Origin: Escherichia phage UE-S1
Strand: one strand, 5' to 3'
Sequence record: ON568341.1
DNA: 64,000 nucleotides
Shown here: in pieces, positions 1 through 16,101 of the stretch
Position numbering within the stretch: the first letter of the stretch is position 1
Layout: each line of letters opens with the position of its first letter
Translations under genes and position numbers: made by a program
Notes under the pieces: model-generated
The model's input: only the letters and a program-made list of their open reading frames with translations
Databases searched by the model: none
What the model was told of the DNA's origin: nothing

Positions 1-258
1 AATTACGGTTTCAATTCAGGCGGTTGTGAAAAATATCAGTACTTTATAACTGCTGATGGCGGTGTCCTGGGTATTAATACAGTTATTGTAAACATTCAGA
101 AAATTAATTTCAATGATCCAGACGATAGCCAGTTTTACATTATAGGCGTAGACGTGAACTATGAGGATGACTCACTAACTGATGATTACACTGGCGAGAA
201 GTTAGAAAGTGCATACGGTGAAGATGATTATCAGTCAGTACCAGAAGATTTCGAATAA
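1..258 (+). CDS. hypothetical protein, 5-prime truncated at window edge
   Basis: frame 1 open from base 1 to TAA 256-258; promoter follows immediately. Confidence 0.45.
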   Translation, partial: NYGFNSGGCEKYQYFITADGGVLGINTVIVNIQKINFNDPDDSQFYIIGVDVNYEDDSLTDDYTGEKLESAYGEDDYQSVPEDFE

Positions 259-272
259 TATTAAAAAATAGT

Positions 273-300
273 TTGACAATAGATTATAGTACTGTATAAT
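273..300 (+). promoter_or_regulatory. sigma70-type promoter (TTGACA-16-TATAAT)
   Basis: TTGACA 273-278, TATAAT 295-300. Confidence 0.6.
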
Positions 301-317
301 AGTTTACATCAAGAAAC

Positions 318-337
318 GGGAAGTAACAGTACTTCCC
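318..337 (+). promoter_or_regulatory. 5-prime UTR stem-loop (GGGAAGTA / TACTTCCC)
   Basis: perfect 8-bp stem, 4-nt loop, between promoter and RBS; same architecture recurs upstream of many early genes. Confidence 0.5.
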
Positions 338-358
338 TACTAACAGAGAGAAAACAAA

Positions 359-571
359 ATGGCTGATATCCGCACTTTACTGAAAAATGCAAAACGAGTT
401 TTATTTTCTGATCACGAACATTTAAACAAGGATATTACTGGCGTTCGGAATATCAAAGATGTAAAACGTGTTATGGGTATCTATTGCAATATGAAACGTG
501 TTGGCACGTTCGGTAATAAATTTCTATACCAGGCGGGGGATTACAATTTTACACTGACTATCATTAACTAA
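359..571 (+). CDS. hypothetical small early protein (70 aa)
   Basis: ORF track; promoter + hairpin + A/G-rich RBS upstream. Confidence 0.6.
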   Translation: MADIRTLLKNAKRVLFSDHEHLNKDITGVRNIKDVKRVMGIYCNMKRVGTFGNKFLYQAGDYNFTLTIIN

Positions 572-590
572 AAATATTATCACAGTACTA

Positions 591-619
591 TTGACATAGT
601 TTGATAGTACTGGCATAAT
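591..619 (+). promoter_or_regulatory. sigma70-type promoter (TTGACA-17-CATAAT)
   Basis: TTGACA 591-596, CATAAT 614-619. Confidence 0.55.
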
Positions 620-653
620 AGATTTTATCAACTACACTACTAAGGAATTAAAA

Positions 654-833
654 ATGGCTATCATCGCAAAAACTGAAATCATCGGCCTGGATTCTATCAT
701 CATGACGTTTGAAGATCAAAAAGGTATGTATGTAGTTTCCTATGGTGATTATGTTCGGGAGTATGAAACAGTAGACGAAGCCTTTGAAAGTTACATTCGC
801 CAGGTGAATAAAGCATACGACGATTACCGCTAA
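654..833 (+). CDS. hypothetical small protein (59 aa)
   Basis: ATG 654 after RBS AAGGAA; not in ORF track (below 60 aa); stop TAA 831-833. Confidence 0.5.
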   Translation: MAIIAKTEIIGLDSIIMTFEDQKGMYVVSYGDYVREYETVDEAFESYIRQVNKAYDDYR

Positions 834-860
834 AATATATTACCAGTACTATTAAAGATA

Positions 861-889
861 TTGACAACGTTTGATAGTACTGGCATAAT
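861..889 (+). promoter_or_regulatory. sigma70-type promoter (TTGACA-17-CATAAT)
   Basis: near-identical copy of promoter at 591-619. Confidence 0.55.
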
Positions 890-946
890 AAGTTTTATAA
901 ACAGTAGTCAAATAGTAGTTAACTTAACAAAAGAGAGAGAAACAAA

Positions 947-1090
947 ATGATCGCACTGGATTCATTCATCGATGCAGTTCTGGCAAAAACTGGCGAGGAT
1001 CTGACCGCAGAACAATACGCAATGATCGAGCAATGCCAGCAAGACGGTAAATCGGTGAAAGATACTGTTAAGATTATCCGCAAGATGTAA
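947..1090 (+). CDS. hypothetical small protein (47 aa)
   Basis: ATG 947 after AGAGAGAGAAACAAA RBS; terminator-like hairpin follows. Confidence 0.45.
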   Translation: MIALDSFIDAVLAKTGEDLTAEQYAMIEQCQQDGKSVKDTVKIIRKM

Positions 1091-1096
1091 GATTAT

Positions 1097-1124
1097 AAGC
1101 CCATTAGTTAACGCTGGTGGGCTT
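1097..1124 (+). terminator. terminator-like hairpin (AAGCCCA / TGGGCTT)
   Basis: 7-bp stem, weak T-run. Confidence 0.3.
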
Positions 1125-1196
1125 TAATCATTTACCCTATACAATGCCAGTACTAAACCGTTTATCTCATTAGAATGCATTACAGGACGTTTAACA

Positions 1197-1394
1197 ATGA
1201 TTAGCATGAAATCAGTACAAAAACAAATAGAAACATTATCAAAAATTAAACGTAAACAGTACTCATTAGAATATAATATCAATGGTAACTATCATCTAAT
1301 GAAAGAGAATAATTTTATCGTCATTGATGAATCATTGCAAATTATTAGTATAGTACTGAAAGCATTAATTAATGATAGAAAAAGGTTAAAATAA
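1197..1394 (+). CDS. hypothetical protein (65 aa)
   Basis: ORF track; weak RBS; 1-nt overlap with next gene. Confidence 0.4.
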   Translation: MISMKSVQKQIETLSKIKRKQYSLEYNINGNYHLMKENNFIVIDESLQIISIVLKALINDRKRLK

Positions 1395-1651
1395 TGGCAG
1401 TAGGATTCGCGAAAGATGGAGCCGAGCAAGATGAGATTAACGCAGTTATTCAAGCCGCCGTTAACCACGCTAGAAAGCAAATTAACGCACAAATAGAATC
1501 ACTGATACATTGCCTCGACTGCGGCGATAAAATCCCTGAGAATCGCCGACAGGCTGTTAAGGGATGTAAGTACTGCATTAATTGCCAAGTGGATCATGAT
1601 AGTACTTTTAAAAGAGATCCGCGTAATTGTTGGCATAGATCTATGAGATAA
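1394..1651 (+). CDS. putative TraR/DksA-like C4 zinc-finger protein
   Basis: CLDCGDKIPENRRQAVKGCKYCINCQ matches the Cx2C-x17-Cx2C pattern of TraR/DksA zinc fingers. Confidence 0.5.
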   Translation: MAVGFAKDGAEQDEINAVIQAAVNHARKQINAQIESLIHCLDCGDKIPENRRQAVKGCKYCINCQVDHDSTFKRDPRNCWHRSMR

Positions 1652-1658
1652 AAAGTAA

Positions 1659-1686
1659 TTGACAGTACTGAAAGATAGTGTATAAT
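1659..1686 (+). promoter_or_regulatory. sigma70-type promoter (TTGACA-16-TATAAT)
   Basis: TTGACA 1659-1664, TATAAT 1681-1686. Confidence 0.6.
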
Positions 1687-1715
1687 GTTTTATATCTTAA
1701 CTGAGGATAGAAATC

Positions 1716-2072
1716 ATGGGAATACAACATATCACGCGGACCACTGACAATGGCGAGATCACTGGTTATCAAGTACAGGGCAAAGTAGCACAATTGCAGT
1801 ACTGGTTTGTTAAACGTGGAATCATTGCACCGGATCTTGATTATGACCGTGTAGCGTTTATTGATTCTCTTTATGTTGATCCTGATAGTCGGGGCAATGG
1901 TGAAGGTAACGAATTAATGAATGCCTTTATCGATGCCGCCGATGATTCAGATTGTATCATCTTAGAATGCGATACGGGAGAAGATAACGCCTTTAATCTT
2001 AAAGAATGGTACGAAGGATTCGGATTCGAGGTACTGATCGATAGTGAATATCCTATCATGATTTTATCATAG
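1716..2072 (+). CDS. hypothetical protein, possible GNAT-like acetyltransferase
   Basis: VDPDSRGNGEGNELMNAF resembles GNAT motif A (R-x-x-G-x-G); 118 aa. Confidence 0.45.
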   Translation: MGIQHITRTTDNGEITGYQVQGKVAQLQYWFVKRGIIAPDLDYDRVAFIDSLYVDPDSRGNGEGNELMNAFIDAADDSDCIILECDTGEDNAFNLKEWYEGFGFEVLIDSEYPIMILS

Positions 2073-2150
2073 TACTTGCATTTAGTTTTCAGTACTGTTA
2101 TAGTACTTGCATCAAGGGGAAACATCTTCCCCTACTAAGAGGAAATAAAA

Positions 2151-2339
2151 ATGGAAAACTTATCAAGTATTTTAGTACAAGATGATTTCGGTAATCCTGG
2201 AAGTGCTATCATTGTTCGGGGCAATAAAGCAACGTTTGTTATTGCTGGTGGACCCGTACAGCGTAGCATTAAAAATAATGCTGTTACCATTAATAATGTA
2301 CGCTATCGCTTAGATAAAGAATTAATTCATAAACTGTAA
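2151..2339 (+). CDS. hypothetical small early protein (62 aa)
   Basis: promoter, GGGGAA..TTCCCC hairpin and RBS upstream. Confidence 0.55.
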   Translation: MENLSSILVQDDFGNPGSAIIVRGNKATFVIAGGPVQRSIKNNAVTINNVRYRLDKELIHKL

Positions 2340-2347
2340 AAAAGTAC

Positions 2348-2375
2348 TGGACAATAGATTATAGTACTGTATAAT
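2348..2375 (+). promoter_or_regulatory. sigma70-type promoter (TGGACA-16-TATAAT)
   Basis: near-copy of promoter at 273-300. Confidence 0.55.
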
Positions 2376-2424
2376 AGTTTACATGAAGGGGAGAAATGAT
2401 TCTCCCCACTAAGAGGAAAGAAAA

Positions 2425-2637
2425 ATGCAAGGTCAACTAATCGTTCGTAAATGGTCTGATACTAACGAAAAACCGTGGGATGTACAATACATCGCCCCAA
2501 ATGGTGAATCCAGATATCAACCAGGTGTAACGCATAGTACTGAGCAATTCGCCGCCGCTCATCGCGAACGTCTGTTACAATCAATGCAGCACGGTTCCGG
2601 TGAAAAATTCATTCAGGATCATTGGCTGAAAGATTAA
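2425..2637 (+). CDS. hypothetical small early protein (70 aa)
   Basis: promoter, hairpin and RBS AAGAGGAAAG upstream. Confidence 0.6.
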   Translation: MQGQLIVRKWSDTNEKPWDVQYIAPNGESRYQPGVTHSTEQFAAAHRERLLQSMQHGSGEKFIQDHWLKD

Positions 2638-2644
2638 AAAGTAC

Positions 2645-2672
2645 TTGCACAGTACTGAATAAAGTGTATAAT
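2645..2672 (+). promoter_or_regulatory. sigma70-type promoter (TTGCAC-16-TATAAT)
   Basis: TTGCAC 2645-2650, TATAAT 2667-2672. Confidence 0.55.
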
Positions 2673-2723
2673 GTTTTATATCGGAAGGGGAATAGTTCCC
2701 CTCCTAACAAAGAGGAAAGTATA

Positions 2724-2897
2724 ATGGTCCAGGTAGAATTAACAGTACTGAAAGATCTGTTTTATCGGATTGGTACTACTGGCGAATATCCGAAGGGTGA
2801 TAATGCAAAACTTTACGTATCACTCGACTTATGGCAACGCGAACAATTAGCAACGGCCTGGCGTAAAGGCAAAGCAGATAGCGAGGTGAAAGCATGA
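2724..2897 (+). CDS. hypothetical small protein (57 aa)
   Basis: ATG 2724 after RBS; track ORF 2622-2897 would run through the promoter, so the internal start is preferred. Confidence 0.5.
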   Translation: MVQVELTVLKDLFYRIGTTGEYPKGDNAKLYVSLDLWQREQLATAWRKGKADSEVKA

Positions 2898-3043
2898 AAG
2901 AATTCTTATTTGAAGTAGTGTTTCAAGGTGTCGGTAATAACCAACTGATTCGAACAAGTGGTTATAATGTTAACCAGGCATGGAATAACATTAAACAAAT
3001 GTACCCGAACGCTATCACATATCGCAACCCGAAAGAAGTTTAA
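2894..3043 (+). CDS. hypothetical small protein (49 aa)
   Basis: ATGA overlap with upstream stop; not in track (below 60 aa). Confidence 0.4.
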   Translation: MKEFLFEVVFQGVGNNQLIRTSGYNVNQAWNNIKQMYPNAITYRNPKEV

Positions 3044-3052
3044 AAATAATTG

Positions 3053-3093
3053 AAAAAGGGATTGACTCCGGTCAGTCCCTTTGCTATTATATA
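3053..3093 (+). promoter_or_regulatory. repeated promoter-like dyad element, copy 1 (TTGACT-17-TATTAT)
   Basis: AAAAAGGGATTGACTCCGGTCAGTCCCTTTGCTATTATATA; exact copies at 6060 and 8319. Confidence 0.55.
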
Positions 3094-3191
3094 CGCATAG
3101 AAACAAATTAGCCCACCGGGTGCATAAATGTATCTATTGTTTGCTGGTGGCTAGTACTATCAAGTACTGAAAACTATTTTTAAAAAAGTAC

Positions 3192-3219
3192 TTGCAAAGT
3201 ATCACGATAAGCGTATAAT
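3192..3219 (+). promoter_or_regulatory. sigma70-type promoter (TTGCAA-16-TATAAT)
   Basis: TTGCAA 3192-3197, TATAAT 3214-3219; structured ORF-less segment downstream. Confidence 0.5.
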
Positions 3220-3307
3220 GTTTTACATCAGGACGGGGAACGAAATAAGTAACCCCGTTAAGTAGTCCAGGAGTAAGACATACGAAAAACTCCCCTGATA
3301 AAATAGT

Positions 3308-3335
3308 TTGACAATAGAAAGTAAACGAGTATAAT
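3308..3335 (+). promoter_or_regulatory. sigma70-type promoter (TTGACA-16-TATAAT)
   Basis: TTGACA 3308-3313, TATAAT 3330-3335. Confidence 0.55.
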
Positions 3336-3368
3336 ACTTACATCAACCACTGATAAGGAAACATTAAA

Positions 3369-3644
3369 ATGCGGACTTTACTTACAGCTAACGAAATCGA
3401 GCAAGTACTGACTACTAATCTGGAACAATGGAAACGTGAAGCAGATATCCAGGCGGTTCAATGCCTTAACGATAAGTTAACGCCAGATGACTTAAGCACG
3501 ATTGTTGATCCACAATTTTATGAAGATATTCACGACACGTCTTTAAGCGTCGAGGATGTACTTGATAAGCACTACATTGATACTGATTTACATGTTTACG
3601 GTCGTAAAAACTTTATCACTATTCACGACATTTACAATACTTAA
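3369..3644 (+). CDS. hypothetical early protein (91 aa)
   Basis: promoter and RBS upstream. Confidence 0.6.
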   Translation: MRTLLTANEIEQVLTTNLEQWKREADIQAVQCLNDKLTPDDLSTIVDPQFYEDIHDTSLSVEDVLDKHYIDTDLHVYGRKNFITIHDIYNT

Positions 3645-3647
3645 GTA

Positions 3648-3675
3648 TTGACAAAGTATCTTAGTACTGTATAAT
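3648..3675 (+). promoter_or_regulatory. sigma70-type promoter (TTGACA-16-TATAAT)
   Basis: TTGACA 3648-3653, TATAAT 3670-3675. Confidence 0.55.
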
Positions 3676-3731
3676 AGTTTACATCAAGCGAGGGGAATGG
3701 TTCCCCTCCTAACAAAGAGAGAGAAATAAAA

Positions 3732-4055
3732 ATGGCTATGATCCTTACCCAGAAAGTAGAACTGAAAATTGTAACCTCCTTTGACATTAAAGTTAATCGG
3801 TGGACTGATAGCCACGGCAATACTTACCACTCCTGCTACGTGTCCGCATTGATTGGTGATCGCTGGGAAGACCTGGGACACGAAACCTTTACATACGGTT
3901 ACGGCACACAAGGCGAGTACACGGGTTTAGAAATCATTAAGGAAACTGTAATAGGTTTCAACCCGAAAGAGAAAGTACTACACAGAATTGAGAAAGAGAT
4001 CAACAAAGAAATTACAGTTCGCTACTACGATGTAAAACGTAAGAAAGACATGTAA
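3732..4055 (+). CDS. hypothetical early protein (107 aa)
   Basis: promoter, GGGGAATGGTTCCCC hairpin, RBS. Confidence 0.6.
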   Translation: MAMILTQKVELKIVTSFDIKVNRWTDSHGNTYHSCYVSALIGDRWEDLGHETFTYGYGTQGEYTGLEIIKETVIGFNPKEKVLHRIEKEINKEITVRYYDVKRKKDM

Positions 4056-4077
4056 TAGAATCCATTTAAAGTACTAT

Positions 4078-4106
4078 TTGACATTGCCCAGATAGTACTT
4101 TATAAT
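4078..4106 (+). promoter_or_regulatory. sigma70-type promoter (TTGACA-17-TATAAT)
   Basis: TTGACA 4078-4083, TATAAT 4101-4106. Confidence 0.55.
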
Positions 4107-4150
4107 AGACTCTAACTTGTAGTACTAACTCAACTAATAGGATGTATACC

Positions 4151-4546
4151 ATGATTACTAAATTCTACGCTACCCGTGAAGCTGCCCGTATTGTTGCACG
4201 CGAGGAAGGAGCAGCATTTAAAGACATGGGCAAAGATGCAACGAAAGGTCAACGCTGGGCCGTACAGTTCAAAGAAATCTCTGATATTGTGAATTCACCT
4301 GAGCCAGTACTGACAGCAGCAGAACTAAAACGAGCGGATATGCTGGCGGCAATACTTGACGCACAAGATGAGTTTATCGCTGACTCTGATATCAAAGTAC
4401 AGGTAAACCACACCGCATGGACTCACGCGGATCACCTGGCAAACCTTAAGCGTCCAAGTGAACTGATTCGCAACCAGAAAGAGATCCGACATGATCGTAA
4501 GGGTAATCGTGTAACAGTATACAGTAAACGCCGCCAGGTTATCTAA
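4151..4546 (+). CDS. hypothetical protein (131 aa; alternative start 4142)
   Basis: AGGA RBS 9 nt upstream of ATG 4151; intrinsic terminator follows. Confidence 0.6.
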   Translation: MITKFYATREAARIVAREEGAAFKDMGKDATKGQRWAVQFKEISDIVNSPEPVLTAAELKRADMLAAILDAQDEFIADSDIKVQVNHTAWTHADHLANLKRPSELIRNQKEIRHDRKGNRVTVYSKRRQVI

Positions 4547-4568
4547 TAACTTGCAGTACTAACAACAC

Positions 4569-4593
4569 GGCGGGATCAGTTCCCGCCTTTTTT
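4569..4593 (+). terminator. rho-independent terminator
   Basis: GGCGGGA / TCCCGCC stem followed by TTTTTT. Confidence 0.7.
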
Positions 4594-4607
4594 ATAGGAC
4601 AAACAAA

Positions 4608-4862
4608 ATGATTAAGGTTCAACTATATAAAGATAACATCTTACGGGTACACTATAAAGCACCTCAGAGAATCATCACAAAGGCCGTACAGCTTGCTAAT
4701 GAGTTTATTAATGGTAACCTATTACCTAGGAAGTTAAGCAACGGAAAACTGCGTGTAATCGACGTGGACACTAACAACAGGATAGTAATCGAGAACACAG
4801 GAAAAATAAACCTATATGAACACCAACAATACAATAAGAAAATAAAACTAATATCACGTTGA
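4608..4862 (+). CDS. hypothetical protein (84 aa)
   Basis: RBS GGACAAACAAA upstream. Confidence 0.5.
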   Translation: MIKVQLYKDNILRVHYKAPQRIITKAVQLANEFINGNLLPRKLSNGKLRVIDVDTNNRIVIENTGKINLYEHQQYNKKIKLISR

Positions 4863-4887
4863 CAGTACTCAAATGTTTTAGTATTAT
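4859..4887 (+). promoter_or_regulatory. sigma70-type promoter (TTGACA-17-TATTAT), duplicated unit A
   Basis: 60-bp promoter/5-prime UTR block nearly identical to 5135-5191. Confidence 0.5.
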
Positions 4888-4915
4888 GTACACATACCAA
4901 CACGGGAGAAACAAA

Positions 4916-5134
4916 ATGAAATTATCTAAAATCGAAAAGAAAACTATTGATGAAGCAGTTAAGCACGGTTATACCTTTCGTAATGATTCACATTTTACCA
5001 ATTTTCAACAGGGGTATCGTACTATTAAAAAACTAATTGACAAAGGTTTATTAGTTGAAGTCAATAATGGGAACGGTATCGAGTATCAGCCAACCCAAGA
5101 CGCATTATCTTTAAAGAAATATAATATTATCTAA
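4916..5134 (+). CDS. hypothetical protein (72 aa)
   Basis: ATG 4916 after GGGAGAAACAAA RBS; track ORF from 4859 includes the promoter. Confidence 0.55.
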   Translation: MKLSKIEKKTIDEAVKHGYTFRNDSHFTNFQQGYRTIKKLIDKGLLVEVNNGNGIEYQPTQDALSLKKYNII

Positions 5135-5163
5135 TTGACAGTACTCAAATGTTTTAGTACTAT
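5135..5163 (+). promoter_or_regulatory. sigma70-type promoter (TTGACA-17-TACTAT), duplicated unit B
   Basis: copy of 4859-4887 block. Confidence 0.5.
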
Positions 5164-5191
5164 ATGTACATACCAACACGGGGGAAACAAA

Positions 5192-5434
5192 ATGATTACT
5201 TTAGAAAAACGTATCAAAGAAACTACATCGCTGGTGGAACTGTTAACAGTACTCAAATGTAAAACAACACCATTTAGCACGCCGGACTTTATTAATATGG
5301 TTGATGTTAATGGTCGCTATCGTATCACGGTCGAACAAGGAGCGGCGAAAGTATTCAGTACTAAAAACACGAAGGAAGTGATCCACGCCGTTAATGTTAA
5401 AAAAGTAGTTGCCATTGATAGTAAAGTACTGTAA
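5192..5434 (+). CDS. hypothetical protein (80 aa)
   Basis: ATG 5192 after GGGGGAAACAAA RBS. Confidence 0.55.
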   Translation: MITLEKRIKETTSLVELLTVLKCKTTPFSTPDFINMVDVNGRYRITVEQGAAKVFSTKNTKEVIHAVNVKKVVAIDSKVL

Positions 5435-5465
5435 TATAGTTTCATTAACTCAAGGAGAACATGCA

Positions 5466-6050
5466 ATGCGTAATTATACTAAATTCATCCGTACACTGTC
5501 AGAAATGGAAACCAACAAAGAGATCCTTTCAGCTTGTCGGTTAGCTGGCCTGGAGATCATCGGTGCTGGTTCTTCCCGTATAGTTTTCGCTTTAAATGAT
5601 CGGTTAGTGATTAAGGTCGCGAATTGTGATGCGGGTGTAGAACAAAATGAAACTGAATGTAAGGTATGGAATTTTTTAGACTATGACCGCCCTCAGTTGA
5701 AACAGTACTTTGCAAAGGTGCATATGCATTTATGCGATCCTGATAATATGTTTATCGTTATGGATCGGTTGAGTACTGCAAGCAAAGGTAGTGTGAAGCA
5801 CGTAAACGCGTGCAATGAATTAAAGTACAATATTAAACGTAATGCAATCGAACGCCATCACCGCTTTGCTGATGCACTACAACACGTCGATGATACATTA
5901 TCAACACTAACGATAAGAGATATCAGAAAACAGAATATCGGCCAGGATCGTAATGGCCTTATTAAAGTACTTGATTACGGTTTAACCTGCAATATCTGGA
6001 ATCAGTACTATAAAAAGCGTGATGTGGCAGCAAGTAAGGTAACACGATAA
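5466..6050 (+). CDS. putative minimal Hanks-type protein kinase-like protein
   Basis: GAGSSRIV (Gly loop), VIK (lysine), IRDIRKQNIG (catalytic loop), LDYG (DFG-like) in canonical order; RBS AAGGAGAA. Confidence 0.45.
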   Translation: MRNYTKFIRTLSEMETNKEILSACRLAGLEIIGAGSSRIVFALNDRLVIKVANCDAGVEQNETECKVWNFLDYDRPQLKQYFAKVHMHLCDPDNMFIVMDRLSTASKGSVKHVNACNELKYNIKRNAIERHHRFADALQHVDDTLSTLTIRDIRKQNIGQDRNGLIKVLDYGLTCNIWNQYYKKRDVAASKVTR

Positions 6051-6059
6051 AAAAGATTA

Positions 6060-6100
6060 AAAAAGGGATTGACTCCGGTCAGTCCCTTTGCTATTATATA
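6060..6100 (+). promoter_or_regulatory. repeated promoter-like dyad element, copy 2
   Basis: TTGACT 6069-6074, TATTAT 6092-6097. Confidence 0.55.
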
Positions 6101-6191
6101 TCCATTGAGAGATAACTCACTGACCCATAGGGTGCGGAAGTGTATCTATTATATAAGTATTCAGTACTGAAAACTATTTTTAAAAAAGTAC

Positions 6192-6219
6192 TTGCAAACT
6201 ATCTCAATGAGCGTATAAT
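6192..6219 (+). promoter_or_regulatory. sigma70-type promoter (TTGCAA-16-TATAAT)
   Basis: copy of promoter at 3192-3219. Confidence 0.55.
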
Positions 6220-6274
6220 GTTTTATATCGAGAGGGGGAAATGGTTCTCCCTAGTACTAAAAGGAATCAAGACG

Positions 6275-6496
6275 ATGACTACTATGACCTGCGTTCACGC
6301 TTCAAATCTTCTGAATGATGCAGCATTTAAAGCAGGTGAAGAATATCAATGCTATCGGGATGAAAATAAAAAAGTTTTTGTAGTTGATAATAATGGTTTC
6401 CATATTGAATTACAATCCGGCTTCACTGGTTTAAATGGTAAATCAGTATGGGGCGTACAGGATGATAAAGGTACATATCATTTTAAACGTAATTAA
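6275..6496 (+). CDS. hypothetical protein (73 aa)
   Basis: ATG 6275 after hairpin and AAAAGGAA RBS; track start 6140 lies upstream of the promoter. Confidence 0.5.
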   Translation: MTTMTCVHASNLLNDAAFKAGEEYQCYRDENKKVFVVDNNGFHIELQSGFTGLNGKSVWGVQDDKGTYHFKRN

Positions 6497-6499
6497 GTA

Positions 6500-6527
6500 T
6501 TGACAAAGTATATCAGTACTGTATAAT
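6500..6527 (+). promoter_or_regulatory. sigma70-type promoter (TTGACA-16-TATAAT)
   Basis: TTGACA 6500-6505, TATAAT 6522-6527. Confidence 0.55.
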
Positions 6528-6577
6528 AGTTTACATCAAGGGGAGAATGGTTCTCCCCACTAAAAGGAAACAAAATT

Positions 6578-6850
6578 ATGTCCAGCTACTCCGCTACTAT
6601 GATCATTAAAGATATGAACGGTAATCCTACTTCTGCTGGTGGATCATTTGGAAACATTAATTTAGATGGTCGGTTATCCATGCAATCAGCCATCGATGCA
6701 GCGAAAGAAGTTTTTAAGAATGAATGTACTGTTAGTAAGCTGGATTATATGGGTTTCGCTATCGAGAAAACTACTCGTTTTGTGAACTACAAAAATCCAC
6801 TGATGATTGATACTAACCTGAAAGCTAACGAAGTGGGGTACTTATTATGA
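6578..6850 (+). CDS. hypothetical protein (90 aa)
   Basis: promoter, hairpin, RBS. Confidence 0.6.
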   Translation: MSSYSATMIIKDMNGNPTSAGGSFGNINLDGRLSMQSAIDAAKEVFKNECTVSKLDYMGFAIEKTTRFVNYKNPLMIDTNLKANEVGYLL

Positions 6851-7038
6851 CAGTAGAAGAAGTAAAAAAAGTACTGGCAGTACTACGATATCATAATCAT
6901 TGCAAGGTGAAGAATGATCCTGATTATCTTGATTCATCCCTGGAGGAAGACACCTTGAACGCTATAAGCCATATGCAGACATTAGCAAAGCGTATGACTG
7001 AAAAGAACATGCCGGACTATATCGGAAATAAAATTTAA
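6847..7038 (+). CDS. hypothetical protein (63 aa)
   Basis: ATGA overlap with upstream gene. Confidence 0.5.
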   Translation: MTVEEVKKVLAVLRYHNHCKVKNDPDYLDSSLEEDTLNAISHMQTLAKRMTEKNMPDYIGNKI

Positions 7039-7045
7039 AAAGTAC

Positions 7046-7073
7046 TTGCATTGTAGTTAGATTAACGTATAAT
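7046..7073 (+). promoter_or_regulatory. sigma70-type promoter (TTGCAT-16-TATAAT)
   Basis: TTGCAT 7046-7051, TATAAT 7068-7073. Confidence 0.5.
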
Positions 7074-7124
7074 GTTTTATATCGAGAGGGGAAATGGTTT
7101 CCCCTCAAGTCCAGGAGATACACC

Positions 7125-7388
7125 ATGAACACTATCGAAATCACTATCAATGCACACGTATACGACAACGTAGTACTGCAAACTACTATGACCGCCAATG
7201 ATACCAGTACTTTGCGGAATACTGTTATTAGTGCTGTATGTGCCGCTATCGGTGATGTATCCCTGGAAAATTCAGAACACATCAACAACGGTTTCACTAT
7301 GTGCAAACGTGATAACGCAAAACATATCATCGTGGAAGGTTACGGCGGTGTAGAATTTAATGTTTATATGAAAAAAGTACTTGCATAA
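7125..7388 (+). CDS. hypothetical protein (87 aa)
   Basis: promoter, hairpin, RBS CAGGAGA. Confidence 0.6.
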   Translation: MNTIEITINAHVYDNVVLQTTMTANDTSTLRNTVISAVCAAIGDVSLENSEHINNGFTMCKRDNAKHIIVEGYGGVEFNVYMKKVLA

Positions 7389-7408
7389 TAACTAAAACAA
7401 AGTATAAT
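7381..7408 (+). promoter_or_regulatory. sigma70-type promoter (TTGCAT-16-TATAAT)
   Basis: overlaps 3-prime end of preceding gene. Confidence 0.5.
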
Positions 7409-7455
7409 GTTTTGCATAGGGGGAGATATCCTCCCCCACTAAAAGGAGTAATAAA

Positions 7456-7680
7456 ATGGCTAACTTTGATGAACTGATGCGGGAAGTAGCTTACCTGGCA
7501 GAAGAGAAGAAATCATTCGATTCTATCTATAACACCGCTCACCGTGATTCAGTACTGGCATGTAACCAGGATCAAAAAGATGAACTAATCGCCACCTATC
7601 ATGAAGCATGGAAGTACTACCGACAATGGGAGAAAGAAGAAAGTGAGTCTACCATTGACGGCCTCAATAATCTAATCTAA
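7456..7680 (+). CDS. hypothetical protein (74 aa)
   Basis: promoter, GGGGGAGATATCCTCCCCC hairpin, RBS. Confidence 0.6.
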   Translation: MANFDELMREVAYLAEEKKSFDSIYNTAHRDSVLACNQDQKDELIATYHEAWKYYRQWEKEESESTIDGLNNLI

Positions 7681-7699
7681 AAGTTTTATTTCAGTACTA

Positions 7700-7728
7700 T
7701 TGACATAGCTTGATAGTACTGATGTAAT
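7700..7728 (+). promoter_or_regulatory. sigma70-type promoter (TTGACA-17-TGTAAT)
   Basis: TTGACA 7700-7705. Confidence 0.5.
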
Positions 7729-7756
7729 AACTTTACTAACTACAAGGGGAAACATA

Positions 7757-8014
7757 ATGGATCAATTCACACAATATCGGGTAAATCCTCAAGCTATGGC
7801 CTACGTAGAAGACCATAAAACGTTACCAGTACTGCAACCAGTTAAAGGCCGTATCTATCGTGGCCTTGCCTGGGATACGGCCCAGGATGGATATAAAACC
7901 GTCGCCGTGGGTATGTATTGCGGTGATGGTGAATGGTTTGATCCAAATAATCCGGTATCCATTGACAGTACTGAAAAAATGAAATGGGCCGACTACATCG
8001 AAGATATTTCATAA
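7757..8014 (+). CDS. hypothetical protein (85 aa)
   Basis: promoter and RBS upstream. Confidence 0.6.
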   Translation: MDQFTQYRVNPQAMAYVEDHKTLPVLQPVKGRIYRGLAWDTAQDGYKTVAVGMYCGDGEWFDPNNPVSIDSTEKMKWADYIEDIS

Positions 8015-8021
8015 AAACTAT

Positions 8022-8049
8022 TTGACAGTACTAACCAGTAATGTATAAT
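8022..8049 (+). promoter_or_regulatory. sigma70-type promoter (TTGACA-16-TATAAT)
   Basis: TTGACA 8022-8027, TATAAT 8044-8049. Confidence 0.55.
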
Positions 8050-8104
8050 GTTTTACATAGAGCGGGGGAATAGTTCTCCCGCCAATAGTTTGGAGTAAAA
8101 CATT

Positions 8105-8305
8105 ATGTCTATCGCTATCGCCCTGGTTGAAGTACTGAAAGAAGCTAAAGCCAACCTTATCGACGTAAAGATCCAGGAACTACAAAACGGCTTAATCGGC
8201 TGTACTTGTACCGCTGGTGGAGCGGCAGACTATCGAGAACACGAATCACTCGAATCACTGGTTCGGTATCTTACCATGATCGTTGATGATTGGAGAATCA
8301 TCTAA
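8105..8305 (+). CDS. hypothetical protein (66 aa)
   Basis: promoter, hairpin, RBS. Confidence 0.55.
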   Translation: MSIAIALVEVLKEAKANLIDVKIQELQNGLIGCTCTAGGAADYREHESLESLVRYLTMIVDDWRII

Positions 8306-8318
8306 CAAAAAAGAATAA

Positions 8319-8359
8319 AAAAAGGGATTGACTCCGGTCAGTCCCTTTGCTATTATATA
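8319..8359 (+). promoter_or_regulatory. repeated promoter-like dyad element, copy 3
   Basis: TTGACT 8328-8333, TATTAT 8351-8356. Confidence 0.55.
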
Positions 8360-8468
8360 CGCATAGACAAAAACTAGCCCACAGGGTGCATAGGTGTATC
8401 CAAAATATATAGTTAATAACGGTGAGTAACTATCTGCTGGTGGAACTAAAACTATTAATAAAAAAGTA

Positions 8469-8497
8469 TTGACAAAGTATATCAGTACTGCAATAAT
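8469..8497 (+). promoter_or_regulatory. sigma70-type promoter (TTGACA-17-AATAAT)
   Basis: TTGACA 8469-8474; weaker -10. Confidence 0.45.
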
Positions 8498-8550
8498 GTA
8501 TCTCGTAGGGCGGCAATGGTGCGACGGCCCACAAAGTTAGGAGATTCACC

Positions 8551-8883
8551 ATGAGTACTTCAATCGCTATCGTTAAAGCTTTCATCCGTACTAATGTTTC
8601 CTCTGTATTCATCGACGGCCTCGACCGTAACGTAGAATACTCAATCATTATCGCACAAACGGCAAACGGTTCTCGGTACATCCTGAATGATAGTGAAGCA
8701 AATCACTACTACTTCACTAAAGCCACTGGCTTTAAACGCATCGATGCTGATGTAGTATACGCTAAGATGAATAAGCTGGTAGACAAGATTAACGCGAAAG
8801 GTACTATCGATTTACAGTACTGGACCGAAACCGATCCAGAATATGGATCTCACCGCTACCTGAATCCAGGTATCAAAATGTAA
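8551..8883 (+). CDS. hypothetical protein (110 aa)
   Basis: RBS AGGAGA upstream. Confidence 0.6.
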   Translation: MSTSIAIVKAFIRTNVSSVFIDGLDRNVEYSIIIAQTANGSRYILNDSEANHYYFTKATGFKRIDADVVYAKMNKLVDKINAKGTIDLQYWTETDPEYGSHRYLNPGIKM

Positions 8884-8890
8884 AAAGTAC

Positions 8891-8918
8891 TTGCATAGTA
8901 CTTAGATTCATGTATAAT
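8891..8918 (+). promoter_or_regulatory. sigma70-type promoter (TTGCAT-16-TATAAT)
   Basis: TTGCAT 8891-8896, TATAAT 8913-8918. Confidence 0.5.
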
Positions 8919-8972
8919 GTTTTACATAGAGAGGGGGAAATGGTTCTCCCTCCTAAATTAAGGAGTTTTATC

Positions 8973-9374
8973 ATGACCTTCTCAATCACTTCCTTCGCTG
9001 ACGTTTTAGTACTGGCCCGGACTTTTGGTAAAGCTGGCCTTGAGCACGCTGTAAGTAATGGTCATATGCACCCTGAATATTGCCGCATCATCGGTAGCTG
9101 CAAACGTTGGGCCGTGTCCCGTAACATTGAGATTGAAAACTTCAATGACGGCAACAACGAATATACAGTTGATGCAGTATTCGAAGCCGTTGATCTCGGC
9201 GGTATCTATAACACTAACCTGAATGATGTGCGTATCGTTCGCACGGGGTTCGGTGCTTATGATGTATCTATCCGTGAAGCTATGGACAAGGGATACATTA
9301 GCAAGGACCAGTTAGCTTACATCATGCAGCAAACTAAGGAACGTAACGAAGCACGTACTATCTTAGGGTTGTAA
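8973..9374 (+). CDS. hypothetical protein (133 aa)
   Basis: ATG 8973 after AAGGAG RBS; track start 8910 lies in the promoter. Confidence 0.6.
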   Translation: MTFSITSFADVLVLARTFGKAGLEHAVSNGHMHPEYCRIIGSCKRWAVSRNIEIENFNDGNNEYTVDAVFEAVDLGGIYNTNLNDVRIVRTGFGAYDVSIREAMDKGYISKDQLAYIMQQTKERNEARTILGL

Positions 9375-9442
9375 GCGTTACACATCACCAAACATCATAG
9401 GCCGCCTTGTAGCGGCCTTAACTATATCAGGAGTTCATACAC

Positions 9443-9652
9443 ATGAACTATACAGTATACAGCGTTCTAGGCACTATTGCAGGCGTACATGATAACGTCG
9501 ATGGTGCTATGCGTACAGTACTGCAACAGGTTCCACTAAAGCCTAAGACCATTAAGCAGATGACAGCACGACTAACCAGGGCGACGGCTGGCGTGGAAGT
9601 ATGGCAGGACTATGGGGATACACAGATAATCGTAAGCGTAACGAAGGATTAA
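9443..9652 (+). CDS. hypothetical protein (69 aa)
   Basis: RBS CAGGAG upstream. Confidence 0.55.
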   Translation: MNYTVYSVLGTIAGVHDNVDGAMRTVLQQVPLKPKTIKQMTARLTRATAGVEVWQDYGDTQIIVSVTKD

Positions 9653-9680
9653 TGCGTAAAAGGATTTAGTACTGATTCAG

Positions 9681-9747
9681 AAAAAAGTCAAGGCGTTTTT
9701 TAAATTATGCGTTAAAAAAATGCATAGGTAATCCCTTGACTTTTTTG
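9681..9747. promoter_or_regulatory. long inverted repeat at module boundary (13-bp arms AAAAAAGTCAAGG / CCTTGACTTTTTT)
   Basis: perfect arms ~40 bp apart, T-run after right arm; possible terminator of early unit. Confidence 0.4.
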
Positions 9748-9843
9748 AAATAAAAGGGATTGGACTATGGCAAAATGCGTAGGGGGCTAAAGGGCGGGTA
9801 ACCTTAGCGACTTCGTTAAAGGGGTATTACGAATAAAATGTTA

Positions 9844-9871
9844 TTGACTTTTTATATAAATCGTATAAAAT
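9844..9871 (+). promoter_or_regulatory. sigma70-type promoter (TTGACT-16-TAAAAT) for FamA array
   Basis: TTGACT 9844-9849; only clear promoter before a 6-kb run of overlapping genes. Confidence 0.45.
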
Positions 9872-9901
9872 ATGATTGATAATAATTTTAAGGGAGTCCC
9901 T

Positions 9902-12577: not shown

Positions 12578-12581
12578 GCAG

Positions 12582-12839: not shown

Positions 12840-12850
12840 ATGTGAGGTTG

Positions 12851-13569: not shown

Positions 13570-13570
13570 A

Positions 13571-15867: not shown

Positions 15868-15879
15868 GAGTACTGATAT

Positions 15880-16095: not shown

Positions 16096-16101
16096 CAGTA
16101 C

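What the first reader, a model, noticed from the sequence alone, without database searches (positions are those of the whole stretch)
270..9000. Stereotyped promoter / 5-prime hairpin / RBS cassette on nearly every early gene
At least 20 genes in the first 9 kb are each preceded by a near-consensus promoter (TTGACA or TTGCAT, 16-17 bp, TATAAT, then GTTTTACATC or AGTTTACATC), then a G/C-clamped stem-loop such as GGGGAATGGTTCCCC or GGGAAGTAACAGTACTTCCC, then ACTAA..AGAGGAAA and ATG. The hairpin lies in the 5-prime UTR, not at a terminator position. This looks like a modular expression cassette that could stabilise transcripts or be a site for an RNA-binding regulator or endonuclease.
Basis: seen in the sequence. 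Interest (0 to 1): 0.55.

Follow-up and report, generated by a model that had tools for sequence, protein, structure and literature searches.

The report
Phage early promoter-hairpin expression cassettes
The first 9.8 kb of the window is the end of a jumbo coliphage's roughly 20-kb terminal repeat, where most of the tiny early genes each carry a repeated unit of consensus host promoter, short G/C hairpin and ribosome-binding site; this is a variant of the 'PeSL' mobile regulatory cassettes already known in T4-type phages, so it is real and tidy but not a new kind of thing.

Summary
The window is an Asteriusvirus (Rak2-like jumbo coliphage). Positions 1 to about 9804 are the right part of its ~20-kb direct terminal repeat.

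**Observation.** It is real but overstated. 21 of 26 genes in 270-9000 have their own near-consensus sigma70 promoter: 7 perfect 12/12 matches against 0.01 expected, all on the + strand. Only 12 genes, plus one orphan unit, have the G-first hairpin.

**Geometry.** Across 80 distinct copies from related phages:
- the stem starts 10-14 nt after the -10, so it lies inside the predicted transcript;
- the stem is 7-9 bp and the loop 3-5 nt;
- the SD follows 5-9 nt later and the ATG 17-25 nt later;
- there is never a T-run.

**Pairing.** It is kept by compensatory changes (8 of 9 pairs; 0 of 500 shuffles match).

**Indels.** Gene gains and losses between sister phages begin and end inside cassettes.

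**Closest known.** This matches PeSL cassettes (Arbiol 2010; Comeau 2014), except that in RB49 the hairpin sits inside the promoter, whereas here it is in the 5' UTR.

**Most likely role.** A modular early-expression and shuffling cassette whose hairpin acts on the RNA (stabiliser or end-protector), not as a terminator. Transcription starts and function are untested.

**Verdict.** New variant of a known kind; moderate interest.

The parts
273..361 (+). Cassette 1: -35 273-278, -10 295-300, hairpin 318-337 (GGGAAGTA acag TACTTCCC), SD, ATG 359
   Evidence: MFE -11.6, z -3.8
2076..2153 (+). Cassette: -35 TTGCAT 2076, -10 TATAGT 2099-2104, hairpin 2115-2133 (AGGGGAA acatc TTCCCCT), ATG 2151
2348..2427 (+). 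Cassette: -35 TGGACA 2348, -10 2370-2375, hairpin 2388-2407 (GGGGAGAA atga TTCTCCCC), ATG 2425
   Evidence: z -3.3
2645..2726 (+). Cassette: -35 TTGCAC 2645, -10 2667-2672, hairpin 2683-2704 (bulged; core AGGGGAA tag TTCCCCT), ATG 2724
3192..3305 (+). Orphan unit: promoter (-35 3192, -10 3214-3219) plus hairpin 3233-3258 and an SD-like AGGAG but no ORF. The predicted ~76-nt RNA closes on itself (-20.9 kcal/mol, z -3.25). Conserved in CRJP21 (two copies) and in Justusliebigvirus muut.
3648..3734 (+). Cassette: -35 3648, -10 3670-3675, hairpin 3690-3708 (GAGGGGAA tgg TTCCCCTC), ATG 3732. This cassette is the duplicated junction of a one-gene indel versus CRJP21 and G17.
6192..6277 (+). Cassette: -35 TTGCAA 6192, -10 6214-6219, hairpin 6233-6252 (AGGGGGAA atgg TTCTCCCT, one G.U), ATG 6275
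6500..6580 (+). Cassette: -35 6500, -10 6522-6527, hairpin 6540-6558 (GGGGAGAA tgg TTCTCCCC), ATG 6578. Junction of a one-gene indel versus G17.
7046..7127 (+). Cassette: -35 TTGCAT 7046, -10 7068-7073, hairpin 7086-7106 (GAGGGGAAA tgg TTTCCCCTC), ATG 7125. Left breakpoint of the gene deletion in 121Q. The ortholog in G17, CRJP21 and JP4 carries GCGGGGGAA tag TTCTCCCGC.
7381..7458 (+). Cassette: -35 TTGCAT 7381, -10 7403-7408, hairpin 7419-7437 (GGGGGAG atatc CTCCCCC), ATG 7456. Right breakpoint of the 121Q deletion.
8022..8107 (+). Cassette: -35 8022, -10 8044-8049, hairpin 8062-8082 (GCGGGGGAA tag TTCTCCCGC), ATG 8105
   Evidence: z -3.1
8469..8553 (+). Cassette with a degenerate hairpin (about 8508-8530, GGGCGGCAATGGTGCGACGGCCC; z +0.67): -35 8469, -10 AATAAT 8492-8497, ATG 8551. 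The muut homolog has a perfect GGGCGGCA atag TGCCGCTC. Junction of a one-gene indel versus 121Q.
8891..8975 (+). Cassette: -35 TTGCAT 8891, -10 8913-8918, hairpin 8931-8952 (GAGGGGGAA atgg TTCTCCCTC, G.U pairs), ATG 8973
591..656 (+). Hairpin-less promoter/RBS cassette (TTGACA-N17-tgGCATAAT, short UTR). Others of this kind have -35 at 861, 1659, 3308, 4078, 4859, 5135, 5409 and 7700.
3055..3190 (+). Classical PeSL-like unit: a 12-bp terminator-like hairpin overlapping the -35 (AAAGGGATTGACtccgGTCAGTCCCTTT), then TATTAT, then about 100 nt of conserved non-coding sequence. Repeated at 6062-6190 and 8321-8468.
   Evidence: (annotated as ARNOLD terminators in G17)
4569..4596 (+). True intrinsic terminator built from the same hairpin type plus a T-run (GGCGGGA tcagt TCCCGCC TTTTTTAT). 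It serves as an internal contrast to the cassette hairpins.
1..9804 (.). Right-hand ~9.8 kb of the ~20-kb direct terminal repeat. The repeat end is mapped by loss of collinearity with the tandem repeat copies in the JP4 record.

Best explanation
These are PeSL-type early-gene expression cassettes of a Rak2-like jumbo coliphage, packed into its ~20-kb direct terminal repeat.

**What each cassette is.** It is a self-contained unit: A-rich upstream tract, near-consensus sigma70 promoter read by unmodified host RNA polymerase, a conserved initial transcribed tract, in about 55% of copies a 7-9 bp G-first stem-loop, then an A-rich unpaired spacer with SD and ATG.

**Shown here.** The repeat family; its fixed geometry; selection for base pairing; the absence of a terminator tail; and the fact that gene indels between sister phages begin and end inside cassettes.

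**Inferred.**
1. Transcription starts about 7-8 nt after the -10, so the hairpin is the 5'-proximal structure of each gene's own mRNA. It also sits as an internal structure in read-through RNA from upstream promoters.
2. The hairpin acts at the RNA level, as a 5' stem-loop that slows 5'-end-dependent decay (RppH/RNase E) and/or as a 3' end-protector after cleavage of read-through RNA. It does not terminate transcription.
3. The repeated cassettes give the homology by which single genes, each with its expression signals, are inserted, deleted and swapped within and between phage lineages.
For: **Identity and context.**
- The window is 93-97% identical to Asteriusvirus genomes.
- These phages have ~21-kb direct terminal repeats (PMC13070987). 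The repeat end maps to window ~9804.

**Promoters.** 7 perfect and 13 at >=11/12, against 0.01 and 0.28 expected, all on the + strand.

**Geometry in 80 distinct copies.**
- The stem starts 10-14 nt after the -10 (mode 12).
- 7-9 bp stem, 3-5 nt loop.
- SD 5-9 nt and ATG 17-25 nt after the stem.
- At most 4 T in the next 8 nt.
- Real terminators in the same window carry T-runs.

**Pairing is selected.**
- On 50 distinct stems, 8 of 9 pairs show changes on both sides, in 60 cells; 0 of 500 shuffles reach this, and slid controls score lower.
- Orthologous genes carry different but still perfectly paired stems, with conserved flanks. Examples: GGGAAGTA/TACTTCCC vs GGGGAGAA/TTCTCCCC; GAGGGGAAA/TTTCCCCTC vs GCGGGGGAA/TTCTCCCGC.
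- Internal G.T pairs number 36 against 14 A.C, which fits pairing on the sense strand.

**Folding.** In the predicted UTRs the hairpin is the only structure and the SD/AUG is left open.

**Linkage to promoters.** The hairpin type is tied to promoters: 11/13, 22/24 and 18/22 G-first hairpins lie 8-18 nt after a -10.

**Shuffling.** One-gene indels against CRJP21, G17 and 121Q have junctions inside cassettes: overlaps at 3631-3738, 6495-6590 and 8455-8522, and a deletion from 7082 to 7372.

**Precedent.**
- PeSLs combine a strong sigma70 promoter, a Gn-loop-Cn stem-loop and an SD/ATG upstream of ORFans, and mediate modular shuffling (PMC2839356 and PMC4122927).
- 5'-terminal stem-loops stabilise E. 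coli mRNAs (Emory 1992 and Bouvet & Belasco 1992, as listed in PMC3997798). The T7 gene 10 leader is a further example (own knowledge).
Against: - There are no transcription-start or half-life data for any phage of this group.
- If the start is the A 8 nt after the -10, the 5' single-stranded leader is usually 5 nt (range 3-10). That is more than the roughly 2-4 nt reported as the limit for protection by the ompA-type hairpin (own knowledge of Emory et al. 1992).
- Nine promoters in the same zone do without a hairpin, so it is not needed for early expression.
- Sense and antisense folding energies of promoter-downstream segments do not differ in an unbiased set (-11.9 vs -12.0 kcal/mol). The G.T excess is not corrected for shared ancestry. 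Strand specificity is therefore only weakly supported.
- Predicted SD accessibility is the same with the hairpin (0.62) and with it deleted (0.64), so an 'RBS insulator' role gets no support.
- In RB49 PeSLs the stem-loop reduced downstream expression like a terminator, so an attenuator role cannot be dismissed from sequence alone.
Confidence: 0.6

Rival explanations
1. The hairpin is a transcription attenuator or terminator for read-through from the many upstream promoters, as proposed for canonical PeSLs. It would keep each gene's dose set by its own promoter.
For: - PeSL stem-loops are described as terminators/attenuators, and the PeSL211/210 stem-loop cut lacZ expression as strongly as rrnB T1.
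- Promoters here are only about 300 bp apart with few canonical terminators between them.
- The three hairpins overlapping a -35 (3055, 6062, 8321) are predicted terminators.
Against: - The major hairpin class lies downstream of its own promoter's predicted start, so it would attenuate its own gene equally.
- None of the 80 variants has 5 or more T in the 8 nt after the stem.
- The phage does add a T-run to the same hairpin type where it has a real terminator, at 4569.
- In RB49 the stem-loops sit inside the promoter, between -35 and -10 or over the -10, not in the UTR.
Confidence: 0.15
2. The hairpin is an RNA operator. It would be a common binding or cleavage site for a phage or host RNA-binding protein or endonuclease that shuts off or processes the whole set of terminal-repeat early mRNAs. 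One variant is a switch in which loss of the 5' arm lets the C-rich 3' arm pair with the SD.
For: - The inner stem is conserved (GGGAA/TTCCC), with A-U closing pairs in about 90% of copies.
- The position relative to the SD is fixed.
- The 3' arm resembles the anti-SD. Removing the 5' arm in silico lowers predicted SD accessibility from 0.62 to 0.43.
Against: - Loops are highly variable in sequence and length (23 different loops, 3-8 nt).
- Whole stems are replaced between orthologs. This argues for selection on shape rather than on a specific sequence.
- The 3'-arm:SD pairing is weak (mean -2.2 kcal/mol) and is expected from composition alone.
- No candidate RNA-binding protein was identified. 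Pfam found only DksA/TraR zinc finger, GNAT and a weak kinase among 10 early proteins.
Confidence: 0.1
3. The inverted repeat matters only at the DNA level. It would act as a recombination hot spot or cruciform/ssDNA hairpin that drives cassette exchange, or as a replication or packaging signal of the terminal repeat. Its presence in the transcript would be incidental.
For: - Indel junctions lie in cassettes.
- PeSLs were proposed to recombine by homologous or site-specific exchange and to form mini-circles.
- Sense and antisense fold equally well.
- The hairpin is confined to the terminal repeat.
Against: - Homology for recombination is supplied by the whole ~85-bp cassette, and hairpin-less cassettes sit in the same zone.
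- The hairpin is the most variable part of the cassette between orthologs. That is the opposite of what a recombination site needs.
- G.T exceeds A.C 36 to 14.
- The fixed spacing to the SD/ATG is unexplained by a DNA role.
Confidence: 0.1
4. There is no function. The hairpin would be a passenger inherited with a promoter cassette that spread by duplication.
For: - All copies are clearly related in sequence.
- Nine promoters lack the hairpin.
Against: - Pairing is kept through many changes on both sides and through whole-stem replacements.
- No ortholog in the sampled genomes shows a disrupted stem. The one exception is the 8469 lineage, which is shared by the window and CRJP21.
Confidence: 0.05

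Closest known systems
PeSLs (promoter-early stem-loops) of T4-type phages RB49/phi1, T4/PST and KVP40/nt-1 (Arbiol et al. 2010, PMC2839356; Comeau et al. 2014, PMC4122927)
   Same: - Repeated ~60-90 bp intergenic cassettes with an AT-rich upstream tract, a near-perfect sigma70 promoter, a Gn-loop-Cn stem-loop, and an SD plus start codon.
- They are placed before small ORFans in hyperplastic regions.
- Gene indels between sister phages are bounded by cassettes.
- Three units in the window (3055, 6062, 8321) even have the classical 'stem-loop over the -35' layout.
   Different: - In RB49 the stem-loop lies inside the promoter: TTGACA-GGGGATC...GATCCCC-TATAAT, or over the -10. It is therefore transcribed only by read-through.
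- Here the main class starts 10-14 nt after the -10, inside the gene's own 5' UTR, with no T-rich tail.
- There is no detectable sequence homology to RB49 cassettes.
- The host phages are Rak2-like jumbo phages and Stephanstirmvirinae, not Straboviridae.
- The cassettes are concentrated in a long direct terminal repeat.
- Terminator activity and mini-circles were not tested here.
5'-terminal stem-loop mRNA stabilisers: E. coli ompA and papA leaders (Emory, Bouvet & Belasco 1992; Bricker & Belasco 1999; listed in PMC3997798) and the phage T7 gene 10 leader GGGAGACCACAACGGUUUCCC (own knowledge)
   Same: A short G/C-rich hairpin close to the 5' end of the mRNA, followed by an unstructured A/U-rich ribosome-binding region. 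The T7 g10 leader even has the same G-first GGGAGA...UUUCCC form and a downstream AAGGAG.
   Different: - The predicted 5' single-stranded leader here is usually 5 nt (3-10), longer than the 0-4 nt of proven stabilisers.
- The hairpin here belongs to a multi-copy cassette.
- No half-life data exist.
Phage T5 pre-early/early expression from the terminal repeat with very strong sigma70 promoters (own knowledge), and the RpoD-like promoter clusters reported before short hypothetical ORFs in the Rak2-like phage CBB (PMC5259590)
   Same: Dense arrays of consensus host-type promoters in front of small host-takeover genes, located in or next to a long terminal repeat.
   Different: - No conserved UTR hairpin is described for T5 or CBB (zero mentions of hairpin or stem-loop).
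- The promoter/hairpin/RBS stereotypy and the cassette-bounded indels are not reported there.
Intrinsic (Rho-independent) terminators
   Same: A G/C-rich 7-9 bp stem with a short loop. The window's own terminator at 4569 uses the same stem type.
   Different: - There is no U-tract.
- The position is after a promoter and before an RBS, rather than after a stop codon.

Membership tests
PeSL cassettes (Arbiol 2010 / Comeau 2014) | Near-consensus sigma70 early promoter with an AT-rich upstream tract | tested here: met
   7 perfect and 13 at >=11/12 matches against 0.01 and 0.28 expected, all on the + strand. AAAAA tracts lie upstream of the -35.
PeSL cassettes (Arbiol 2010 / Comeau 2014) | Stable stem-loop of the form G-run, loop, C-run within the cassette | tested here: met
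   12 good hairpins in the window (-10.6 to -16 kcal/mol). 80 distinct variants elsewhere. Covariation in 8 of 9 pairs.
PeSL cassettes (Arbiol 2010 / Comeau 2014) | Stem-loop placed within or next to the promoter (upstream of -35, over -35, between the boxes, over -10, or just before the start site) | tested here: inconclusive
   Three units have it over the -35 (3055, 6062, 8321). The main class starts 10-14 nt after the -10, that is, past the expected start site. RB49 examples lie between the boxes or over the -10. The start sites have not been measured.
PeSL cassettes (Arbiol 2010 / Comeau 2014) | Intergenic, directly upstream (SD + ATG at the 3' end) of small genes of unknown function in a hyperplastic region | tested here: met
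   79 of 80 variants have an SD plus ATG 17-25 nt after the stem. The genes encode 47-194 aa and most have no Pfam hit. Gene content varies between sister phages.
PeSL cassettes (Arbiol 2010 / Comeau 2014) | Indels and replacements between closely related phages bounded by cassettes (modular shuffling) | tested here: met
   Junction overlaps at 3631-3738, 6495-6590 and 8455-8522, and a deletion from 7082 to 7372, against CRJP21, G17 and 121Q. Two other indels (about 1390 and 2339) are not cassette-bounded.
PeSL cassettes (Arbiol 2010 / Comeau 2014) | Stem-loop acts as a transcription terminator/attenuator; cassettes form encapsidated mini-circles | not testable with these tools
   This needs reporter assays and PCR on phage DNA. 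The sequence argues against termination for the main class (no T-run).
Intrinsic terminators | G/C-rich hairpin followed at once by a U-rich tract | tested here: not met
   0 of 80 variants have 5 or more T in the 8 nt after the stem; 76 of 80 have 3 or fewer. Bona fide terminators in the window (4569, 19508, 35474, 45509, 46435, 53629...) have T5-7.
5'-terminal stem-loop stabilisers (ompA type) | Hairpin within about 0-4 unpaired nt of the primary 5' end | tested here: inconclusive
   With the start taken as the A 8 nt after the -10, the leaders are 3-10 nt, mostly 5. True starts are unknown.
5'-terminal stem-loop stabilisers (ompA type) | Hairpin lengthens mRNA half-life in an RNase E / RppH-dependent way | not testable with these tools
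   This needs rifampicin-chase half-lives with and without the stem.
Known RNA families (Rfam 15) | Match to a curated covariance model | tested here: not met
   No hit at gathering score in 1-10000. There were only two sub-threshold chance-level hits, and neither lay on a cassette hairpin.
RNase III processing sites (T7 early region type) | Extended, roughly 20-bp irregular duplex between genes | tested here: not met
   Stems are 6-9 bp. That is too short for a canonical RNase III substrate (established knowledge).

The most novel reading that the evidence does not exclude
The 5'-UTR hairpin is a regulon-wide RNA control element. It would be a shape-specific tag carried by about 30 terminal-repeat early mRNAs. 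A phage or host factor would read it to time their translation or destruction together, or it would shield these first transcripts from a host RNA-targeting defence. The tag would travel horizontally with the cassette between unrelated coliphage families (Rak2-like jumbo phages and Stephanstirmvirinae).
Probability: 0.12. Interest if true: 0.7.

Novelty: new variant of a known kind. Interest (0 to 1): 0.4.

Why it matters
**If the inferred layout is right,** Rak2-like jumbo phages express the genes of their terminal repeat, presumably the first DNA to act in the cell, from some 50 near-identical plug-and-play units. Each unit brings a maximal host promoter, a structured 5' end and an open ribosome site.

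**What this would explain.**
- How dozens of unrelated tiny host-takeover genes are all expressed strongly at once.
- How single genes are gained, lost and traded between phages, including across families, without losing expression.

**Extension of the PeSL concept.** It would extend beyond T4-type phages and add a class in which the stem-loop is part of the mRNA. That makes the question 'terminator or RNA stabiliser?' directly testable.

**Practical use.**
- The cassettes are compact, naturally diversified strong expression parts for E. coli.
- They are markers for early-gene regions and terminal repeats in unannotated jumbo-phage genomes.

Tried and rejected
1. **T5 identity.** My first guess from the promoter style was wrong. 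BLAST shows Asteriusvirus.
2. **Known RNA family.** Rfam found nothing.
3. **N4-type DNA-hairpin promoters for a virion RNA polymerase.** I dropped this after considering it: every hairpin has a consensus sigma70 promoter just upstream, and relatives of this phage group are reported to rely on host polymerase with T4-like late factors (PMC5259590; PMC7318152). I ran no direct test.
4. **Small upstream ORF starting at the loop ATG.** By reading the sequences, many loops have no ATG (TAG, TGG, CGG, CAC...), and where one exists the frame relative to the main ORF is inconsistent.
5. **RBS insulator.** Predicted SD accessibility is the same with and without the hairpin (0.62 vs 0.64).
6. **Strand asymmetry of folding energy.** My first result (sense more stable in 56 of 80) was biased by how the hairpins were picked. 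In an unbiased set there is no difference. Only the G.T > A.C count (36 vs 14) remains, and it is not phylogenetically corrected.
7. **MAFFT alignments of whole cassettes or of loop-containing hairpins** (A1 and A2) were out of register for the stems. I used arms-only 10+10 nt sequences instead (A3). The rows of A3 were chosen because they form a hairpin, so the 'percent paired' figure is partly circular. The covariation measures are the informative ones.
8. **The search for related loci with one early protein** returned only 121Q.
9. **Crude test of all BLAST HSP ends** against intergenic intervals (28 of 66 vs 25% expected, P = 0.002). It is diluted by paralogous hits, so I rely on the individual collinear-chain junctions.
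10. **Literature searches** found no transcription-start data and no earlier description of these cassettes in Asteriusvirus or Rak2-like phages.

Full report
**What the region is.** Window 270-9000 is 93-97% identical to genomes of the genus Asteriusvirus: jumbo coliphages such as CRJP21, JP4, G17, 121Q and PBECO4, of 350-385 kb. These phages have direct terminal repeats of about 21 kb (fEgEco12 20,993 bp; Sharanji 20,668 bp; PMC13070987 and PMC11895373). The JP4 record carries two tandem copies of a 20,114-bp unit. Collinearity between the window and JP4 stops at window position 9804, exactly where the second copy begins. Window 1-9804 is therefore the right-hand half of the terminal repeat. 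In CRJP21, whose record appears to start at the repeat, the same architecture runs from about 1650 to 19300. Beyond window ~9400, genes become tightly packed or overlapping and no further cassette occurs.

**Checking the observation: promoters.**
- The + strand of 1-9804 has 7 perfect TTGACA-N16/17-TATAAT promoters, 13 with >=11/12 and 19 with >=10/12.
- First-order Markov simulations give 0.01, 0.28 and 4.2. The - strand has 0, 1 and 3.
- Manual curation gives 22 gene-type promoters, plus three promoters embedded in terminator-like hairpins.
- 21 of the 26 ORFs in the interval have their own promoter.

**Checking the observation: hairpins.**
- The hairpin claim is overstated. A G-first hairpin follows 13 of the 22 promoters: 12 genes plus an ORF-less unit at 3192.
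- One of these, at 8469, is weak (z = +0.67).
- The other twelve fold at -10.6 to -20.9 kcal/mol (the eleven gene-linked stems -10.6 to -16.0, the ORF-less 3192 unit -20.9), with the hairpin as the only structure and the SD/AUG unpaired.
- With a fixed criterion, 11 of 22 promoters are followed by a perfect stem, against 5.7% of background windows (P = 8e-9).
- Nine promoters have short, unstructured leaders.

**Anatomy across relatives.** I pooled the window with four Asteriusvirus loci, a Justusliebigvirus locus and IMG/VR contigs recovered with two 19-nt cassette patterns. This gave 80 distinct cassette variants.
- The stem starts 10-14 nt after the -10 in 75 of 80 variants (mode 12).
- The stem is 7-9 bp in 78 of 80.
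- The loop is 3-5 nt in 78 of 80, with 23 different loop sequences.
- The SD begins 5-9 nt after the stem, and the ATG lies 17-25 nt after it.
- No variant has 5 or more T in the 8 nt after the stem.
- By contrast, the window's other strong hairpins (4569, 19508, 25908, 35474, 38780, 45509, 46435, 53629, 58678) are followed by T-runs. The terminator at 4569 uses the same GGCGGGA...TCCCGCC stem type plus TTTTTT.
- G-first hairpins lie 8-18 nt after a -10 in 11/13 (window), 22/24 (CRJP21) and 18/22 (121Q) cases.

**Is the pairing selected?**
- On 50 distinct stems, aligned as 10+10 nt arms (A3), 8 of 9 pairs show changes on both sides, in 60 cells. No shuffle out of 500 reaches the observed covariation, and partners slid by 1-3 columns score much lower. 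The rows were chosen because they form hairpins, so the percent-paired figure is partly circular. The diversity of pair types at fixed positions is not.
- In 30 groups of orthologous downstream genes, the same gene is often preceded by different, still perfectly paired stems while the cassette flanks stay the same. Examples are GGGAAGTA/TACTTCCC vs GGGGAGAA/TTCTCCCC, GAGGGGAAA/TTTCCCCTC vs GCGGGGGAA/TTCTCCCGC, and AGGGGAAA/TTTCCCCT vs GGGGGAG/TTCCCCC.
- Single changes in these groups give G.U pairs.
- Whether these differences arise by compensatory mutation or by conversion between cassettes, a hairpin is retained and its sequence is free to vary.
- Internal G.T pairs outnumber A.C 36 to 14, which fits pairing in the sense-strand RNA. 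An unbiased comparison of sense and antisense folding energies shows no difference, and the counts are not independent events. I rate strand specificity as weakly supported.

**Where the transcript starts (inferred).** E. coli RNA polymerase normally starts 6-9 nt after the -10, preferring a purine after a pyrimidine (established knowledge). All cassettes have C-A or T-A at positions 7-8. The hairpin would then begin at about +3 to +7 (once +11) of a 41-54 nt leader. No transcription-start data for this phage group turned up.

**Comparison with what is known.**
- The architecture matches the PeSLs (promoter-early stem-loops) of T4-type phages. These have an AT-rich tract, a near-perfect sigma70 promoter, a Gn-loop-Cn stem-loop and an SD/ATG. 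They are repeated about 50 times before ORFans in hyperplastic regions and mediate modular shuffling (PMC2839356 and PMC4122927).
- I read a bona fide PeSL region of RB49. [quoted passage not shown]
- In the window, three units (3055, 6062, 8321) have that classical layout: a 12-bp stem over the -35, annotated as ARNOLD terminators in G17. The main class has the stem in the transcribed leader.
- The PeSL hallmark of cassette-bounded indels is present. One-gene insertions in CRJP21/G17 and 121Q, and a one-gene deletion in 121Q, have junctions inside cassettes, seen as duplicated overlaps at 3631-3738, 6495-6590 and 8455-8522 and as breakpoints at 7082 and 7372. Two other indels (about 1390 and 2339) are not cassette-bounded.
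- Cassette-level BLAST hits occur 8-22 times per Asteriusvirus genome. They also occur in Rak2-like Klebsiella, Salmonella and Erwinia jumbo phages and in Stephanstirmvirinae (muut, inny, ALITA, PHB05...), but not in RB49-like phages.
- Muut shares a promoter, orphan unit and gene block at 92% identity and has its own set of the same cassettes.
- For the Rak2-like phage CBB, only clusters of RpoD-like promoters before short ORFs were reported, with no mention of hairpins.

**Mechanism.**
- A terminator role is unlikely for the main class. It would act on its own gene's transcript, and it lacks the U-tract that the phage uses elsewhere.
- A sequence-specific protein site is unlikely given the variable loops and replaceable stems.
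- An 'open RBS' insulator role is not supported (SD accessibility 0.62 with the hairpin vs 0.64 without).
- What remains is an RNA-level role of a stable 5'-proximal stem. It could protect against 5'-end-dependent decay, as in the ompA and papA leaders and the T7 gene 10 leader. It could also act as a 3' end-protector once read-through RNA is cut in the A-rich spacer.
- The predicted 5-nt single-stranded leader is longer than ideal for the first role, so this step is plausible rather than shown.
- The cassette as a whole supplies homology for gene-by-gene exchange.
- The early proteins with recognisable domains are a DksA/TraR zinc finger, a GNAT acetyltransferase and a weak kinase match. This fits a host-takeover region.

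**Verdict.** The finding is real but already has a name. It is best filed as a new variant of PeSL-type cassettes: the stem-loop lies in the 5' UTR, the phages are Rak2-like jumbo phages and Stephanstirmvirinae, and the cassettes are concentrated in the terminal repeat. Interest is moderate (0.4). The most novel reading not excluded is a regulon-wide RNA control tag (probability about 0.12).

Noticed in passing
whole window (204 sites; 60 in 1-8000): AGTACT, often as CAGTACTG, is the commonest hexamer of the window: 204 copies against about 21 expected. It is 10-19 times over-represented in all the Asteriusvirus/Rak2-like loci examined. It is avoided in muut (2 vs 8) and RB49 (0 vs 16). It occurs in all three reading frames and in non-coding DNA. 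It is built into the promoters at three fixed places: AAAAAGTACTTGCAT, TTGACAGTACT and AGTACTGTATAAT. This looks like a DNA-level signal, such as a protein-binding or modification site, and is unexplained.
   Followed up: partly
whole window: The related palindromes GGTACC and CGTACG are completely absent from the 64 kb, while GTAC occurs 515 times.
   Followed up: no
window 3055-3190, 6062-6190, 8321-8468: Three copies (six per terminal repeat in CRJP21) of a ~130-nt non-coding unit. It consists of a 12-bp terminator-like hairpin overlapping a -35 (AAAGGGATTGACtccgGTCAGTCCCTTT), then TATTAT, then a conserved core AGCCCACNGGGTGCA...TGTATC and no ORF. These are candidate small RNAs. The related phage PA5oct has two highly expressed ncRNAs in its terminal repeat.
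   Followed up: partly
window 3192-3305: A promoter plus hairpin plus SD-like AGGAG with no start codon or ORF. The predicted 76-nt transcript pairs its 5' end with its 3' end (-20.9 kcal/mol, z -3.25). It is conserved in CRJP21 (two copies) and, at about 92%, in Justusliebigvirus muut. It may be a small RNA or a decayed cassette.
   Followed up: partly
window ~9804: The right end of the ~20.1-kb direct terminal repeat maps here, from the tandem repeat copies in the JP4 record. The cassette zone coincides with the repeat.
   Followed up: yes
window 3209-3720; L005 11984-16650: A block of cassette, orphan unit, gene and next cassette is shared at about 92% identity with Justusliebigvirus muut, a 146-kb phage of a different subfamily. 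Muut also has its own copies of the same cassette type. This points to cross-family exchange of early genes together with their expression signals.
   Followed up: partly
window 6578-6850: This early gene has 82-86% nucleotide matches in many ~135-140 kb coliphages (EduardKellenberger, AlexBoehm, ECP32...) and in six GenBank records named 'Campylobacter phage' (MG0656xx). Those records may be mislabelled coliphage genomes.
   Followed up: no
window 1394-1651, 1716-2072, 5466-6050: Three early proteins have recognisable domains: a DksA/TraR C4 zinc finger (E 3.5e-11), a GNAT acetyltransferase (E 4e-9), and a weak, sub-threshold protein-kinase match (E 0.003). The last is annotated as Ser/Thr kinase in some relatives. 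Seven other early proteins had no Pfam hit.
   Followed up: partly
window 4569-4596: A canonical terminator (GGCGGGAtcagtTCCCGCC + TTTTTT) uses the same stem type as the cassette hairpins. The next gene (4608) has no promoter of its own.
   Followed up: partly
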